Assembly: GCA_964612555.1 (NCBI GenBank)
Contig: CAZTBW010000005.1
Span: 69,066-133,065, forward strand
Length of the DNA: 64,000 bases
From: an uncultured Bdellovibrionales bacterium
Lineage (GTDB): Bacteria; Bdellovibrionota_C; UBA2361; SZUA-149; DAOLCO01
Direction of reading: 5' to 3'
In this document: piece after piece, positions 47,585 through 51,478 of the stretch
Layout: the number at the start of each line of letters is the position of its first letter
Numbering within the stretch: position 1 is the stretch's first letter
Notes under the pieces: model-generated
Databases searched by the model: none
What the model was told of the DNA's origin: nothing
The model's input: the letters and a program-made list of their open reading frames with translations, nothing else
Position numbers and translations under genes: made by a program

Positions 47585-48730
47585 ATGAAGAAGTATACGT
47601 CCCGACTGGTGGCATTCGCCACGAGTCTCTGTCTTTGTCTCGCTTCCCAAACTTACGGGAACGATGATGATAATCGAAGCTTAGCAGATATAGCTGCAAG
47701 CATCGAGGCAAAATTTGAAGAAATGAATGGGAATCTCTCCGACATCAGGGAGGGGTACCGGGAATTCGAGCAGCTTCAGAATGAGGAATTGAAAAAATTG
47801 ACCGACGCTGGGCTTCGTGTGCACCGTGTTGATTTGGCTTCCTACGAAGCTAATCAGGCGGAAATCCTTTCAAATCTTGGTGTTGAGTACGACGCCATTG
47901 CGCTTGATCTGGAAGCCGGACAGGCTGAGAGATTTTACACAACGGTTGCAAACCGTACTGGGTACACATCTATCCTTGATTCACACGGAAATGTATATTT
48001 CCAGGAAGGTCAAGAGTTAGTCAGTGCCCAGAGCGTGCTGCAGAACTCTGGTACTGGTGGTTACAATCTATACCAACCCCAGTATCAGCAACAATACCAG
48101 CCTTGCTACCCACAGCAACAGTACTGCCAACCCTGCTACCCGCAACAACAGATGTGTGGGAACGCTTGCAACCCATGCCCTGGTGCACATGAGTTTCAAC
48201 AGTACAATCAGGGCAGAAGAATGGGACAAAGGGTATTCGGACACGGCTATAACGGTCGTACTTTCCGTAGCACCCTCCAAGCAGCCCCGTTAATGCACCC
48301 CTATGTGTTGACGGATCTCTTTGGATTCAAGGATGGGCGCCTGTTCAGCAGATTAGAGAACCCTACACGAATAGGTGAAGGGCGTGCTCTTAATTTTATG
48401 TTCCCTCGTATTCGCTACAAAAATGGATATATTTGTAGTGAGCACGACATGCGAGTACATCTCGCAAGGCGCCAACTGGCTATCATATTGAGCACGTCCA
48501 TCGCTGTTGGTGGTGGAAGTGGCGGTGGTGGACCTAAACCAGGACCAGGTCCGGGACTCCGTCCACCGGGAACTCTGTTCTGCCCGGGTTGCCTTGGATT
48601 CGGGATGTTGGATGCAACATACCCCGACCCCGTGGTCAATCCACAAGGGTATCTGTATCCAGAAGACCCGAACCTCCGCTATCGTCGGACAGGAAGGGGA
48701 CACCTTTTAGAAACCCATCTTGCCGCTTAG
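47585..48730 (+). CDS. secreted protein with a Gln/Pro/Cys-rich repeat (QPCYPQQQYCQPCYPQQQMCGNACNPCPG) and a Gly/Pro-rich segment. Unknown function.
   Basis: Signal peptide (MKKYTSRLVAFATSLCLCLASQTYG). A coiled-coil-like N-terminal domain. Low-complexity QQ/Cys repeats and GGGSGGGGPKPGPGPGLRPPG. Confidence 0.55.
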   Translation: MKKYTSRLVAFATSLCLCLASQTYGNDDDNRSLADIAASIEAKFEEMNGNLSDIREGYREFEQLQNEELKKLTDAGLRVHRVDLASYEANQAEILSNLGVEYDAIALDLEAGQAERFYTTVANRTGYTSILDSHGNVYFQEGQELVSAQSVLQNSGTGGYNLYQPQYQQQYQPCYPQQQYCQPCYPQQQMCGNACNPCPGAHEFQQYNQGRRMGQRVFGHGYNGRTFRSTLQAAPLMHPYVLTDLFGFKDGRLFSRLENPTRIGEGRALNFMFPRIRYKNGYICSEHDMRVHLARRQLAIILSTSIAVGGGSGGGGPKPGPGPGLRPPGTLFCPGCLGFGMLDATYPDPVVNPQGYLYPEDPNLRYRRTGRGHLLETHLAA

Positions 48731-48846
48731 CAGGTAATACAGGGTCGAACGTAAAAACGATCACGTATCTGTCTTAACAGGTACGTGATCAGGTTTTTTA
48801 TTGAGCTTTCTGACACGCGCAGGAAGCTCCTTTTCTTTTTTTAGTA

Positions 48847-50397
48847 TCAGGACTTCTTCATTCCTGGAGGTAGGCCCTCAACAAAGATTATCTGTTTCCC
48901 TTGAATGCTGTGCTCTCGTCCGAGATTTGAAGGCAGTACGCCAATACCACTTTTATCAAAATTCAGTCTTGAAGTTATTGCTTCACTGTTTACTTTATTA
49001 CCCCATTCAGGTTTTCCGGTTGAAAATTGTTTGATCTCATTTCCATTCGCATCATACGCTTTCCCCTGATATACATAAACACTGGTAAATCTATTCTGGC
49101 TTTGCTCAGTCTTCCATATATCCTTACCTGAAGCATCCTTCCCTGCATAAATCTCAAGTCCATTATTATCATTCAGACGAGTATAGACGGATTTAGCGTA
49201 AGTAATCCCCATTGCATTTGTCTCATCATAGTCAACTTTTCTCCATGGTCTTTGAGATTTTTTGACTTCGACTTCTGATATATTTTTATTGCTTTCATGA
49301 ACAGCAACATCTTTTGCTGCGTCCTGATTTGTCGAGTGCCCGCTTGAACCTACAGCTTGATTCTCACCCGAATGTGCAGCACCTGAATCATTCTTTGCAG
49401 CTCTTTTTGTAAATACTACGTACGCACCATTATAAAAGTACTCGTGAGGTATTCCCTGCTTAAGACCGCTCACCTTACCCTCTTCAAGTGCATCAAGAGA
49501 TGACAAAACACCAGAGACAGGCACTCTCCCCCTGTAAGAATCCAGGTGGGTAACTTTTTTCCCTGAGGCGTCAGTAAAACTTCCATCTGCTTCCTGATAC
49601 AGACACTCGTATTTCATCCTGTAAGGCTGTTTGTTATTCTCTTCAGCTTTTACCCATGAGTGCCCGGAGGCTTGCCCCGGCACAGTACTATTTCTTTCCC
49701 ATATTTGGAGCTTACCCTCAGAATCAAGGCGGAGGTATTTTTCACTCTGTATCGTTGCACCGTTACAGGTTCTTCCACTGAAAGTAATTTTTGAATGTGC
49801 ATGTGCAACCTTGCTTGCAGCCTCTTTATCGGCACTTTTTTGTTCGCCCTGTGATGCGATCTCTGAGATCGTATCTTTTTTAGCTCCTGCTGAAATCTCA
49901 ACTTTTCCTGTTTCTGCCCCTCCAGATAGAGATTTAAGTTCCTCTCTCAATTTATCAAAGTTTTTTGCAAGCTCAGCAATTTTTAAATTGTCCTCTTCCA
50001 TCTGACCTTGAAGAACTTGAAGACGAGCAATAAGCTCTTCTGCCCTTTCGAGTTGAACAACAAACTTAGCTACATTTTCTTTAAATTTTTCTTCTATCAC
50101 TGCAATTTGTTTTGCTTTTTGTGCACGAGTGGCATCATCAAGATTTTCTTTCTCAAGATCTTTTTTAAGAGCTTCTATATACTTACCTGTATCAAGATGC
50201 CCTTGTGCCTTTTTAAGAGTGTCTGTTACTTCCTTTGCTGCATTGCTTGCTTCTTTAGAGGTTTTTTCTGCATCCCTGGCAGTTGAAGAATCTAGAGATA
50301 GAGAATCCGCACCTCGCAGTTCCAGAGACCCGCCTTCGTCTTTTTTACCTCGACCCTCGGTAGTGTTAGAAGAATTTTTATTAGTAGTTACAAGCAT
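48847..50397 (-). CDS. 516-aa hydrophilic protein with an N-terminal coiled coil. Unknown function.
   Basis: Long ORF with a Lys/Glu-rich heptad-like N-terminal 200 aa and a mixed beta-rich C-terminal half. No signal peptide is evident. A palindromic operator and the start codon lie about 35 nt apart. Confidence 0.5.
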   Translation of the reverse strand: MLVTTNKNSSNTTEGRGKKDEGGSLELRGADSLSLDSSTARDAEKTSKEASNAAKEVTDTLKKAQGHLDTGKYIEALKKDLEKENLDDATRAQKAKQIAVIEEKFKENVAKFVVQLERAEELIARLQVLQGQMEEDNLKIAELAKNFDKLREELKSLSGGAETGKVEISAGAKKDTISEIASQGEQKSADKEAASKVAHAHSKITFSGRTCNGATIQSEKYLRLDSEGKLQIWERNSTVPGQASGHSWVKAEENNKQPYRMKYECLYQEADGSFTDASGKKVTHLDSYRGRVPVSGVLSSLDALEEGKVSGLKQGIPHEYFYNGAYVVFTKRAAKNDSGAAHSGENQAVGSSGHSTNQDAAKDVAVHESNKNISEVEVKKSQRPWRKVDYDETNAMGITYAKSVYTRLNDNNGLEIYAGKDASGKDIWKTEQSQNRFTSVYVYQGKAYDANGNEIKQFSTGKPEWGNKVNSEAITSRLNFDKSGIGVLPSNLGREHSIQGKQIIFVEGLPPGMKKS

Positions 50398-50429
50398 TTG
50401 AATAATTATTTCCCTATGCGTGTTATGCT

Positions 50430-50450
50430 GTCACAGATATAATCTGTGAC
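50430..50450. promoter_or_regulatory. perfect 21-bp palindrome GTCACAGAT-ATA-ATCTGTGAC overlapping a TATAAT-like hexamer, 33-53 nt upstream of the 516-aa gene start
   Basis: Read directly from the sequence. The 9-bp arms are exact reverse complements. Its position fits an operator overlapping the -10 element of the minus-strand promoter. Confidence 0.45.
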
Positions 50451-50491
50451 TTTTTCGGGTAATTTTATTGTTGGAGGTGATGTTAAAATTT

Positions 50492-50528
50492 AAAAAAAGG
50501 GGGATTTGCATCCATGCGAAAACCCCCT
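50492..50528 (-). terminator. Rho-independent terminator for gene 50570-51478
   Basis: On the minus strand: AGGGGG-uuuucgcauggaugcaaau-CCCCCU followed by UUUUUUU, located 40 nt after the stop codon at 50570. The loop contains an inner UGCAU/AUGCG sub-stem. Confidence 0.6.
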
Positions 50529-50569
50529 GGGTGAAAAAACAGGCTATATCCTTTAGCCTGTGAGTATCA

Positions 50570-51478
50570 CTATCGTCGTCCGAACCCGAAAGAACGTCCT
50601 CCGCCGTACATCGGTGCGGAGTAGTTCTGTGGCTGACCGCCGCAGCTACCGTTTGAGCAGCTTTGTCCACCACTGTAACCATAATAAGGCTGCGGTGCTG
50701 GATACCCACCATTCCCTCCAATGTAATGGATAGGTTGTTGGGCGCGTTGCTGGACGTACTGAGGTTGGTGATAGATCGGTGCCTGCCTTACCACCTGTTG
50801 GGTAGGGGCAGGTGTCGGCGAAACCTTAACAACCTGTGGCGCAGGTTGGCTTGGCTCTTCACCCTCCATTTCTGGACGTGGTCCGTCCTGAGCAACCTGT
50901 GCACCAGGTAGGAAAAGGTCGATTGGGTTGCTAACCAGCACTTGCCTTGAACTCGCGACCATATTGCTTGGAACAATATAGCCATCTGAGTCAAGGTAAG
51001 CTATGTTTCCATTCACTTTCACCCTTACACAGGTGATCTCTCCGCGCGTCATATGATGCACTTTGAAGACCATCTGTTGGTTGTTAAGCTTTGCCAAAAG
51101 CTCTGGGGTGAGCTGCTCTTTGTAGCACCGACCTTTAATGTCGGTTTTCAAAGAGACCACTTGGTCAACCATCCCGGAGACGGCTCCTTCAATGGACAGG
51201 AGGGTTTGGTGGTTAACCTTCGCCGCGTCGGTGAGCCCGTCGACTTTCACTTCCAAAACGTCAACTCGCGCCCCAAGCGCTCCAACACTCTCTCCGAGAG
51301 CGTCTACCCGTCCGCCTAGAATTGCGATTTGAGCATCTAACGACAACGACATTGAATCAACAACCGAAGTGGCTTCGGTGGGTTCGTCGCCGTGGTCGTA
51401 ATCGTCCTGGTTGGCATAAATAAAACTTGAACTCGCGAGCAGCAAGATGCTGCACAAAACAGAAAAATGGTTTCTCAT
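50570..51478 (-). CDS. secreted protein with a C-terminal Gln/Pro/Tyr/Gly-rich tail (QPQYVQQRAQQ...GGYPAPQPYYGYSGGQSCSNGSCGGQPQNY...GGGRSFGFGRR). Start placed at the internal ATG at 51478 that yields a signal peptide.
   Basis: MRNHFSVLCSILLLASSSFIYA signal peptide. The acidic NQDDYDHGDEP after the cleavage site is similar to the NDDDN start of the 47585 protein. A coiled-coil segment precedes the low-complexity tail. The ORF-track start at 51598 would add a 40-aa non-hydrophobic leader. Confidence 0.55.
   Translation of the reverse strand: MRNHFSVLCSILLLASSSFIYANQDDYDHGDEPTEATSVVDSMSLSLDAQIAILGGRVDALGESVGALGARVDVLEVKVDGLTDAAKVNHQTLLSIEGAVSGMVDQVVSLKTDIKGRCYKEQLTPELLAKLNNQQMVFKVHHMTRGEITCVRVKVNGNIAYLDSDGYIVPSNMVASSRQVLVSNPIDLFLPGAQVAQDGPRPEMEGEEPSQPAPQVVKVSPTPAPTQQVVRQAPIYHQPQYVQQRAQQPIHYIGGNGGYPAPQPYYGYSGGQSCSNGSCGGQPQNYSAPMYGGGRSFGFGRR

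What the first reader, a model, noticed from the sequence alone, without database searches (positions are those of the whole stretch)
47585..51478. Trio of secreted/coiled-coil proteins with Gln/Pro/Tyr/Cys-rich low-complexity regions and paralogous N-terminal architecture
Genes 47585-48730 (+) and 50570-51478 (-) both start with a signal peptide followed by an acidic NDDDN or NQDDYDHGD stretch and a coiled-coil region. Both end in Q/P/Y/G-rich low-complexity sequence, one with a reiterated PCYPQQQ(Y/M)C unit. They flank a 516-aa Lys/Glu coiled-coil protein. This composition recalls spore-coat, cyst-wall or biofilm-matrix and phase-separating proteins. Each gene has its own conspicuous cis-element (SD hairpin, 21-bp palindrome, paired AACACGTGTT repeats), suggesting tightly regulated, possibly developmental or stress-induced expression. 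No known family is recognisable.
Basis: partly seen in the sequence, partly recalled or inferred. Interest (0 to 1): 0.55.

Follow-up and report, generated by a model that had tools for sequence, protein, structure and literature searches.

The report
Conserved three-gene module of unknown envelope proteins
Three neighbouring genes with no known relatives turn out to be a rare gene module conserved in several unrelated uncultured bacteria: two exported, sticky low-complexity proteins and a partner built from a new protein domain. Its function is still unknown.

Summary
The three ORFs are real: A 47585-48730(+), B 48847-50397(-), C 50570-51478(-). None matches Pfam, NCBIfam, PADLOC or PHROGs.

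They are not orphans. B contains two copies of a ~130-aa beta domain found in only about 20 protein clusters among 1.84 billion representatives. Its AlphaFold model is confident (pLDDT 92.8) but has no Foldseek match in the PDB or BFVD.

In every other lineage whose contig I could read, the B-like gene lies next to a C-like gene. A C-like protein has a Sec signal, heptad coiled coil, Q/Y/P-rich region, usually a C-x(2-4)-C motif, and an Arg/aromatic C-terminus. Six lineages also have an A-like gene: a Sec or Tat signal, a Cys/Gln/Tyr-rich stretch, a conserved Arg-rich core and a glycine-rich hydrophobic C-terminal segment. Gene order differs between lineages, which argues for a functional link.

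A and C are not demonstrably paralogous. B is coiled coil only over residues 37-157. The "AACACGTGTT pair" is the base of a long hairpin, and the "SD hairpin" is not significant.

My best guess, at low confidence, is a cell-envelope or surface structural or adhesive module. The function and the organism are unidentified.

The parts
47461..47493 (+). Conserved ~30-nt motif TCTTATGTTTCCTGCGCGTTAATAAGGTTTT upstream of gene A. It may be a promoter or regulator site.
   Evidence: Nearly identical in the otherwise diverged A-upstream region of L001/L002. It occurs once in the window, and among the ten fetched loci only in L001/L002.
47585..48730 (+). Gene A, 381 aa. Layout: Sec signal peptide (residues 1-25), acidic NDDDN, helical N-domain (~30-130), Q/Y/P/C-rich region with 2x QPCYPQQQ(Y/M)C (~150-200), conserved Arg-rich core (~191-297, including FPRIRYKNGYICSEHD), Gly-rich hydrophobic segment (298-316), then a 65-aa Pro/Gly/Cys tail ending HLAA.
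   Evidence: ORF. Orthologue P0006 is 47% identical. A-like genes in L003, L005, L009 and L010 are found by the core HMM at E = 4e-25 to 2e-58 among 1027 ORFs.
48759..48829 (.). Two terminator-like hairpins (48759-48790 and 48803-48829) between the convergent genes A and B.
   Evidence: The second hairpin is conserved in L002 and L003, with what I read in the alignment as one compensatory change in L003.
48847..50397 (-). Gene B, 516 aa, no signal peptide. Layout: disordered polar N-terminus (1-36), coiled coil (37-157; 49927-50289), beta domain copy 1 (residues 200-332; 49402-49800), disordered linker, beta domain copy 2 (residues 384-515; 48853-49248). Each domain ends G(K/R)xVVFxxGxPPG.
   Evidence: The stop-to-stop ORF extends only 11 codons upstream of the ATG, so there is no room for a signal peptide.
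50430..50450 (.). Perfect 21-bp palindrome GTCACAGATATAATCTGTGAC, 33-53 nt upstream of the B start codon. It overlaps a weak sigma-70-like -35 hexamer.
   Evidence: It is only half-conserved in L002 and absent in L003.
50499..50561 (-). Two intrinsic-terminator-like hairpins downstream of gene C: 50539-50561, and GGGGG...CCCCC at 50499-50527 followed by a U-run.
   Evidence: The second hairpin is conserved in L002 and L003, with two pairs kept through changes on both sides.
50570..51478 (-). Gene C, 302 aa. Layout: Sec signal peptide (1-22), acidic NQDDYDHGD, heptad coiled coil (~48-110, repeats xVDxLxx), short beta region (~134-170, ...IAYLDSDGYIVP), Q/P/Y/G-rich low-complexity region (~200-290), CSNGSC (274-279), cationic-aromatic end GGGRSFGFGRR.
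   Evidence: Syntenic C-like genes are in L002, L003, L004, L005, L006 (x2), L008, L009 (start only) and L010. An HMM of the close C set finds L006_C1 at E = 1.5e-6 among 586 ORFs. BLASTP of C against L006_C1 gives E = 0.001.
51517..51603 (-). Tandem pair of long perfect hairpins (22 and 14 bp), each followed by a U-rich run. They lie 40-125 nt upstream of the C start codon and ~250 nt downstream of fabH. The AACACGTGTT 'repeats' are the base of the first stem.
   Evidence: Folding gives -60.2 kcal/mol, z = -8.3.

Best explanation
A, B and C form a conserved, taxonomically rare and previously unannotated gene module of a diderm bacterium. I think it most likely builds a cell-envelope or cell-surface structure or adhesive layer.

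**Shown**
- C is an exported heptad coiled-coil protein. Its Tyr/Gln/Pro-rich tail carries a C-x(2-4)-C motif and ends in a cationic, aromatic peptide.
- A is exported by Sec here, and carries a twin-arginine signal in two orthologues. It has a Cys/Gln/Tyr-rich stretch, a conserved Arg-rich core and a glycine-rich hydrophobic segment at or near its C-terminus.
- B has a disordered N-terminus, a coiled coil and tandem copies of a new ~130-aa beta domain.
- The genes travel together across lineages with 35-58% G+C and in two different gene orders.

**Inferred**
- C, and probably A, self-associate through the coiled coil, the low-complexity region and disulfides.
- They attach through the Arg/aromatic end to an anionic envelope component such as membrane, peptidoglycan, LPS or polysaccharide.
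- A is held in a membrane by its hydrophobic segment.
- B acts as a multivalent scaffold or adaptor, with one binding site per beta domain. Some B relatives carry the same Q/Y-rich, Arg/Phe-rich tail as C, so I infer that B reaches the same target. That would require export of B by a route that does not use a signal peptide.
For: **Rarity and conservation**
- The proteins are singletons at 90% identity and have only 1-2 close homologues each.
- The B-domain profile finds about 20 true clusters among 1.84e9 representatives.
- Synteny: the trio occurs in the window, L002, L003, L005, L009 and L010. The C-B pair occurs in L004, L006/L007 and L008.
- The order is A> <B <C in the window, L002 and L003, and B> <A C> in L005, L009 and L010.

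**Protein features**
- Signal peptides are present on every complete C-like protein, and on the A-like proteins except L010's called start. RRQFLQ (P0006) and SRRDAL (L009) are twin-arginine motifs.
- The last 12 residues of the tails are uniformly cationic (+2 to +6). CxnC lies within the last 60 residues in 7 of 9 C-like proteins.
- The same type of tail occurs on B-likes P0009, P0013, P0014 and P0016.
- The B-domain model has pLDDT 92.8.

**Context**
- In the window and in L001/L002 the module sits next to envelope-polysaccharide genes: a Wzx flippase, a GT1 glycosyltransferase and a TM2 protein.
- PEP-CTERM proteins lie beside it in L009 and L010.
- No phage or defence family matches.
Against: - B and all its relatives lack a signal peptide. 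An envelope location for B is therefore an assumption.
- Apart from the trio itself, no gene was seen next to the module in more than two or three lineages.
- A is absent within about 10 kb in L006/L007 and L008.
- Beyond L006, the C-like assignments rest on architecture and position, not on significant sequence similarity.
- The tails show no helical amphipathicity beyond shuffled versions.
- There are no expression, localisation or phenotype data.
- The organism could not be identified.
Confidence: 0.35

Rival explanations
1. This is a secreted effector or host-interaction module. B-family proteins would be substrates of a specialised secretion system (type III through the disordered polar N-terminus, or type IV through the Arg-rich C-terminus). 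A and C would be exported accessory or adhesin proteins of a bacterium associated with a host or with prey.
For: - The first 30 residues of the B family are 46% S/T/N/Q/P against 25% in other window proteins, and only 14% hydrophobic against 37%.
- No family member has a signal peptide.
- Several members end in Arg-rich tails. From my own knowledge, these resemble the positively charged C-terminal signals of VirB/D4 substrates.
- The multidomain architecture of coiled coil plus repeated domains is typical of effectors.
Against: - No secretion-system genes lie in the 64-kb window or in the flanks of the related loci, apart from a faint T2SS-K-like hit in L006.
- The same tail sits on C-like proteins that already have a Sec signal.
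- The genomes encode broad metabolism: Nuo in the window and a trp operon in L006.
- No effector-prediction tool could be run.
Confidence: 0.15
2. This is a cytoskeletal or 'periskeletal' shape and polarity module. C would form a periplasmic coiled-coil filament or an Lpp-like strut between envelope layers. A would be its membrane anchor. B would be a cytoplasmic coiled-coil scaffold.
For: - C has regular xVDxLxx heptads resembling Braun's lipoprotein (E = 0.001 over 44 aa).
- C is exported and ends in aromatic and basic residues, as Lpp ends in YRK (my own knowledge).
- B has a 120-residue coiled coil and no signal peptide.
- A has a C-terminal hydrophobic segment.
Against: - C has no lipobox and its C-terminus is Arg, not Lys.
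- There is no Pfam LPP hit.
- The coiled coils are short, about 60 residues in C.
- There are no neighbouring cell-shape or division genes.
Confidence: 0.15
3. These are fast-evolving, lineage-specific ORFs with no joint function, and their adjacency is inherited by chance.
For: - Much of their length is low complexity.
- Close homologues are very few.
- C-like proteins beyond L006 are not detectable by sequence.
Against: - The C-B pair occurs in nine lineages (counting the window) spanning 35-58% G+C.
- The A-B-C trio occurs in six lineages in two gene orders.
- Cores are conserved at 45-70% identity.
- The B-domain model is confident.
- The inter-gene terminators are conserved.
Confidence: 0.05

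Closest known systems
Braun's lipoprotein Lpp (Pfam LPP, PF04728), compared with protein C
   Same: Both are small exported proteins with regular hydrophobic heptads of the type xVDxLxx. Both have a C-terminus of aromatic plus basic residues.
   Different: C has no lipobox. It ends in Arg rather than the Lys that Lpp uses for cross-linking to peptidoglycan. It carries a ~100-aa Q/Y/P-rich region and a CxnC motif that Lpp lacks. No Pfam LPP hit appears even at E <= 1.
Photorhabdus PLL/PHL seven-bladed propeller lectins, compared with the B domain
   Same: A ~30-residue hairpin motif, 'n.DGrLEVfa.G.d..lW..W', at positions 16-51 of the B domain resembles each propeller blade. The summed E-value is 5e-7.
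   Different: Each single blade match is non-significant (independent E >= 3.8). The B domain has one such motif within 130 residues and is not a propeller. Foldseek of the confident model finds no PDB match at all.
Tat-dependent C-tail-anchored periplasmic proteins such as hydrogenase small subunits and FdnH (my own knowledge), compared with protein A
   Same: Both have an N-terminal export signal, which is twin-arginine in two A orthologues. Both have a single hydrophobic segment at or near the extreme C-terminus.
   Different: The window's A has a Sec-type signal. Its segment is only marginally hydrophobic (KD19 = 1.21) and is followed by 65 more residues. No cofactor-binding domain is recognisable and there is no sequence similarity.
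Tyr/Gln/Cys-rich structural or adhesive proteins: spore-coat proteins, chlamydial OmcA/OmcB, mussel and barnacle cements, FUS-like prion-like domains
   Same: The resemblance is in composition only. These are Q/Y/P/G-rich low-complexity regions with Cys pairs and Arg/aromatic ends, capable in principle of cation-pi interactions, disulfide cross-links or di-tyrosine cross-links.
   Different: There is no sequence or domain relationship to any of them. The comparison rests on recalled properties and was not tested.

Membership tests
Lpp / Pfam LPP (PF04728), for protein C | Lipobox with a lipidated Cys at the signal-peptide cleavage site | tested here: not met
   The C signal peptide ends ...SSSFIYA|NQ. 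The only Cys is at residue 9, too early for a lipobox (sequence).
Lpp / Pfam LPP (PF04728), for protein C | Match to the family HMM | tested here: not met
   No Pfam hit for C at E <= 0.1 or E <= 1. The other C-likes give only generic sub-threshold coiled-coil hits.
Lpp / Pfam LPP (PF04728), for protein C | C-terminal Lys for covalent attachment to peptidoglycan | tested here: not met
   C ends ...GFGRR. Most C-likes likewise end in Arg, and none ends in Lys.
Lpp / Pfam LPP (PF04728), for protein C | Regular heptad (alanine/leucine-zipper) coiled coil | tested here: met
   The heptads RVDALGE SVGALGA RVDVLEV KVDGLTD are visible in the sequence. There is a weak BLASTP match to Lpp (E = 0.001).
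PLL/PHL propeller lectins, for the B domain | Seven tandem blades forming a beta-propeller | tested here: not met
   There is one blade-like motif per 130-aa domain. The model is a compact domain of about nine strands and two short helices. No Foldseek hit to PDB lectins.
YD-repeat / RHS proteins, for the B domain | Match to YD/RHS repeat HMMs; many tandem YD hairpins | tested here: not met
   Pfam scans of B, of three complete B-family proteins and of 37 domain copies gave no RHS or YD hits.
PEP-CTERM / exosortase substrates, for protein A | PEP motif followed by a TM helix and a basic cluster at the C-terminus | tested here: not met
   A-likes have a hydrophobic Gly-rich end but no PEP motif. 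True PEP-CTERM proteins are separate neighbouring genes in L009 and L010.
Tat-exported tail-anchored proteins, for protein A | Twin-arginine signal (S/T-R-R-x-F-L-K-like) | tested here: inconclusive
   Present in P0006 (TRRQFLQ) and L009 (SRRDAL). Absent from the window's A (MKKYTSRLVAF) and from L005.
Tat-exported tail-anchored proteins, for protein A | Single C-terminal transmembrane helix | tested here: inconclusive
   KD19 maxima range from 1.05 to 1.90 in the six A-likes. The value is 1.21 in the window, where 65 residues follow the segment.
Prion-like / phase-separating low-complexity domains | PLAAC-type Q/N-rich composition score; demonstrated condensation | not testable with these tools
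   Only raw composition was computed. PLAAC was not available, and condensation needs experiments.
Type III / type IV secretion substrates, for protein B | Recognised secretion signal together with a cognate secretion system in the genome | not testable with these tools
   The N-terminal composition is compatible. No machinery is in the window. The complete genome was not available.
Anti-phage defence or phage proteins | Match to PADLOC or PHROGs models | tested here: not met
   No hits for A or C. B gives only a weak coiled-coil hit to LmuB (E = 0.0015). The AbiEi/AbiEii pair next door is a separate insertion that is absent in L001/L002.

The most novel reading that the evidence does not exclude
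The trio is a new kind of bacterial surface 'cement' or coat system.
- C and A would be exported proteins that condense and cross-link through Tyr/Gln/Arg-rich tails and CxnC motifs.
- B would be built from a beta fold without solved relatives and carry a lectin-like hairpin motif.
- B would be exported without a signal peptide and would tie the material multivalently to a glycan or to prey or host surfaces.
- The cationic, aromatic C-terminal peptide shared between B-likes and C-likes would then be a new targeting or anchoring signal.
Probability: 0.12. Interest if true: 0.75.

Novelty: categorically new. Interest (0 to 1): 0.5.

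Why it matters
If the module is what it appears to be, it defines three new protein families that always travel together. One of them contains a confidently predicted domain with no counterpart in the PDB. It also brings out a recurring C-terminal Arg/aromatic peptide that sits both on signal-peptide-bearing and on signal-less proteins, which hints at an undescribed anchoring or targeting signal.

It gives a concrete, testable entry point into the envelope biology of uncultured diderm lineages. 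In two lineages the module lies beside PEP-CTERM proteins. In the window and its closest relative it lies beside polysaccharide genes.

Caution is needed. The label 'categorically new' here means only that no curated family or solved structure accommodates these proteins. It does not mean that a new mechanism has been shown. Many conserved gene clusters from uncharacterised genomes share this status.

Tried and rejected
**Searches that found nothing**
- Exact look-up of contigs encoding A and B: not on record.
- Genome-collection scans with the B alignment and with the neighbouring glycosyltransferase alignment: no relatives, so the organism stays unidentified.
- JGI metagenome scans with the B and A alignments: nothing.
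- Rfam and tRNA scans of the window: nothing.
- Paper search for the assembly and run accessions: nothing. One keyword search was irrelevant.
- Profile search of A against PDB sequences: only Gly-Ser linkers of scFv antibodies matched.

**Structure searches**
- Foldseek of the whole-B model was dominated by helical hits, none significant.

**Ideas rejected**
- The long repetitive hits of the B-domain profile are spurious sums of short matches. They include Big_3, Kelch and B_lectin proteins (P0017, P0023, P0025, P0027, P0032 and others).
- A/C paralogy is not detectable.
- An amphipathic-helix, MinD-like reading of the tails is not supported. The hydrophobic moment does not exceed that of shuffled tails.
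- Paired AACACGTGTT operators are better read as one long hairpin.
- An SD-sequestering hairpin upstream of A is not significant.
- Membership of a defence island, suggested by the adjacent AbiE genes, is unlikely because the AbiE pair is absent from the syntenic L001/L002 locus.

Full report
**1. The observation**

The three ORFs exist as described: A 47585-48730(+), 381 aa; B 48847-50397(-), 516 aa; C 50570-51478(-), 302 aa from the ATG. All three exact sequences are on record, each as a singleton cluster at 90% identity, from one NCBI contig of 212,120 bp.

A and C start with Sec-type signal peptides followed by acidic stretches (NDDDN and NQDDYDHGD). Both contain strongly Q/P/Y/G(/C)-biased regions. 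The Q+P+Y+G+C fraction in 30-aa windows reaches 0.90 in A and 0.70 in C. The unit QPCYPQQQ(Y/M)C occurs twice in A. None of the three proteins matches Pfam, NCBIfam, PADLOC or PHROGs.

Three points need correction:
- A and C are not detectably homologous (E = 0.12).
- B is coiled coil only over residues 37-157.
- A contains a well-conserved non-repetitive core, not only low complexity.

**2. Surroundings**

The window is chromosomal DNA of a diderm bacterium with about 42% G+C. It encodes:
- nuo genes;
- a 2878-aa GH94 cyclic-glucan-synthase-like protein;
- a Wzx flippase, RF3, EF-G, RF1, PrmC and an OmpA/Pal-like lipoprotein;
- a GT1 glycosyltransferase, a TM2 protein and a weak DnaA/Hda-like protein;
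- ORFs I read as FabH, FabF and MurA from their translations (these three were not scanned against any family library).

An AbiEi/AbiEii pair (45644-47179) lies between the TM2 gene and A. It is absent from the syntenic loci L001/L002, so it is an insertion. The organism could not be named. Two genome-collection scans and two metagenome scans found nothing.

**3. Close homologues and synteny**

- A has one homologue, P0006, at 47% identity. P0006 has a twin-arginine signal, TRRQFLQ.
- B has two homologues, P0007 and P0008, at 51% and 44% identity.
- C has none by word-seeded search.

The contigs of these homologues show the same arrangement as the window. L001/L002 carry GT1 - TM2 - A> <B <C, and L003 carries C> B> <A. 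The genes in the C position encode the same architecture as C:
- L003: signal peptide, coiled coil, QQPVYQQ repeats, TCVGGNCG, and the ending GGGRRGFFRR.
- L002: a fragment containing ...FLDEDGYVIP..., a Q/Y/P-rich region, and the ending GFGRRFR.

**4. Protein B contains a new repeated domain**

B has two copies of a ~130-aa beta domain and its homologues have three. The most divergent copies are still related, for example E = 2.4e-6 between the middle copy of B and the C-terminal copy of P0008.

A profile of eight copies was searched with full HMMER against 1.84 billion representatives. It found 38 proteins at E <= 0.001. About 20 of them are genuine, with full-length domain matches. The rest are long repetitive proteins (Big_3, Kelch, B_lectin and similar) whose scores are sums of short matches.

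No genuine member has a Pfam or NCBIfam hit, and none has a signal peptide. Their first 30 residues are unusually polar: 46% S/T/N/Q/P against 25% in other window proteins (p = 3e-6), and 14% hydrophobic against 37%.

The only sequence lead is a ~30-residue hairpin motif shared with the blades of Photorhabdus PLL/PHL lectins. The summed E-value is 5e-7, but every single blade match is non-significant.

**5. The module is conserved over large distances**

I read the contigs of six distant B-family members.

| Locus | G+C | Gene arrangement |
|---|---|---|
| L004 | 58% | C-like gene directly upstream of B-like P0013; the contig is too short to show A |
| L005 | 53% | B-like P0009 >, < A-like, C-like > |
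| L006/L007 | 35-37% | two C-like genes flank B-like P0020; no A-like |
| L008 | 51% | C-like gene upstream of B-like P0010; no A-like |
| L009 | 47% | B-like P0014 >, < A-like with Tat motif SRRDAL, then the start of a C-like gene at the contig end |
| L010 | 39% | B-like P0011 >, < A-like, C-like > |

(G+C values.)

Details worth noting:
- The A-like protein in L005 ends ...HLAA, like the window's A. The C-like protein there ends RRRGFGLFRRW.
- The C-like protein in L010 ends ...NCNGSCRTGQ.
- An HMM of the A core recovers the A-like genes of L005, L009 and L010 at E = 2.5e-31 to 4e-25 among 1027 ORFs. It finds none in L006/L007 or L008.
- C-likes are recognisable by sequence only as far as L006 (E = 1.5e-6 among 586 ORFs; BLASTP E = 0.001). 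Beyond that I recognise them by architecture and position.
- The C-like hallmarks are a signal peptide, a heptad coiled coil, a Q/Y/P or S/T/P-rich region, a C-x(2-4)-C motif within the last 60 residues (7 of 9), and a last dodecapeptide with net charge +2 to +6 and up to three aromatic residues.
- The same Q/Y/N-rich and Arg/Phe-rich ending occurs on four B-family proteins: P0009 ...GGFLRRVFRRRR, P0013 ...RFFNFGRYR, P0014 ...FRQRFRARFGRWSNR and P0016 ...LFSRRRR.
- Homologous PEP-CTERM proteins lie next to the module in L009 and L010.

Conservation of the trio in two different gene orders, across 35-58% G+C, argues for a functional link rather than inherited adjacency.

**6. Protein A**

Six A-likes share this core...NC-x(2-5)-C...N.G...RP...R.GQ.R...FPR(I/V/L)xY(K/N/R)xG.(I/V).C...(R/K)R. 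It is followed by a 19-26-residue glycine-rich hydrophobic segment.
- KD19 maxima of the segment range from 1.05 to 1.90, and the value in the window is 1.21.
- The segment lies at the extreme C-terminus in three of the six (4-13 residues follow) and close to it in L003 (22 residues follow).
- The window and L005 proteins add a 65-76-residue tail containing Cys pairs and the identical ending HLAA.

An N-terminal export signal plus a C-terminal hydrophobic segment suggests a periplasm-facing, tail-anchored protein. This is an inference.

**7. Cis elements**

- **Upstream of C.** The two AACACGTGTT copies are unique in the window at 0 mismatches. They are the ends of one hairpin with 21-nt arms. 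A second 14-15-bp hairpin follows directly, and both have U-rich tails on the minus strand. The 151-nt leader folds at -60.2 kcal/mol, z = -8.3. Terminators of fabH or of a small transcript, or an attenuator of C, are more likely than paired operators.
- **After C.** The hairpin at 50499-50527 plus a U-run is conserved in L002 and L003, with two pairs kept through changes on both sides.
- **After A.** The hairpin at 48803-48829 is also conserved. From the alignment I read one compensatory change in L003.
- **Consequence.** A, B and C appear to be separate, or attenuated, transcription units.
- **Upstream of B.** The 21-bp palindrome is perfect, but it is not conserved and is only weakly improbable.
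- **Upstream of A, hairpin.** The 'SD hairpin' is not significant (z = +0.25).
- **Upstream of A, motif.** A ~30-nt motif (47461-47493) is nearly identical in L001/L002, although the flanking DNA has diverged.

**8. Interpretation**

Shown:
- The module is real, rare, conserved and unannotated.
- A and C are exported.
- B has no signal peptide and is built from a coiled coil plus tandem copies of a domain without a solved structural relative.
- A common cationic, aromatic C-terminal ending occurs on C-likes and on some B-likes.

Inferred:
- The module is an envelope or surface structural or adhesive system. C, and possibly A, would self-associate through the coiled coil, low-complexity region and disulfides, and would dock onto an anionic envelope component through the tail.
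- A would be membrane-anchored.
- B would be a multivalent scaffold. Its compartment is the main uncertainty.

I put this reading at about 0.35. Rivals:
- a secreted-effector module, 0.15;
- a periskeletal or Lpp-like strut with a cytoplasmic scaffold, 0.15;
- no joint function, 0.05;
- the remainder is something not yet thought of.

**9. Comparison with known systems and novelty**

Membership was tested and not met for Lpp, PLL lectins, YD/RHS proteins, PEP-CTERM substrates, and defence or phage families. It was inconclusive for Tat tail-anchored proteins. It could not be tested for prion-like domains or for secretion substrates.

The families are therefore new in the sense that no curated library or solved structure accommodates them. 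Whether the mechanism is new is unknown. I rate interest as moderate. This is a well-defined conserved module from uncharacterised genomes, with a new domain and a possible new terminal signal, but no functional evidence.

Noticed in passing
window 45644-47179: An AbiEi/AbiEii (type IV toxin-antitoxin / abortive infection) gene pair lies between the TM2-domain gene and gene A. It is absent from the otherwise syntenic loci L001/L002, so it looks like a recent insertion.
   Followed up: partly
window 680-8335: The nuo operon runs nuoC?-D-E-F-G-H-J-K on the minus strand. Only 34 nt separate nuoH (1665-2795) from nuoJ (1013-1630), and no nuoI lies between them. The ferredoxin subunit must be encoded elsewhere or be missing.
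   Followed up: no
window 26582-35218: A 2878-aa protein with GH94 supersandwich and catalytic domains plus a glucoamylase-like domain resembles cyclic beta-1,2-glucan synthase (NdvB/ChvB type). An ABC transporter and an unannotated 972-aa protein (23648-26566) precede it.
   Followed up: no
window 47461-47493; L002 ~3625-3655 (-); L001 2912-2923: A ~30-nt motif, TCTTATGTTTCCTGCGCGTTAATAAGGTTTT, upstream of gene A is nearly identical in a relative whose proteins are only ~50-60% identical. It is a candidate promoter or regulator site.
   Followed up: partly
window 50499-50527 and 48803-48829; L002 350-392; L003 1932-1972: The terminator hairpins after C and after A are conserved at nucleotide level in three lineages. 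The loop sequence TTTTTGCAGGACGCAATT is identical in L002 and L003. This is more conservation than expected for plain terminators.
   Followed up: partly
L009 8901-9749 and 2-430; L010 7703-8575: Homologous PEP-CTERM (exosortase-sorted) proteins lie next to the B/A/C module in two distant lineages. No PEP-CTERM protein was found in the 64-kb window.
   Followed up: partly
L010 5115-6011 (-): The A-like protein of L010 carries internally the motif GGRRGGFFQRFRR, the same kind of peptide that forms the C-terminus of C-like proteins. Its called start shows no signal peptide, so the start may be wrong.
   Followed up: no
window 47585-51478 (proteins A, B, C): All three proteins contain a short hairpin-like motif of the form hydrophobic-x-(L/I)-D-S-x-G-x-hydrophobic: A has SILDSHGNVYF, B has LRLDSEGKLQIW and C has AYLDSDGYIVP. 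This may be coincidence or a shared small structural element.
   Followed up: no
window 57148-57212: The ORFs called for prmC (56163-57212) and prfA (57148-58227) overlap by 65 nt. The prmC start is probably further downstream than the first TTG.
   Followed up: no
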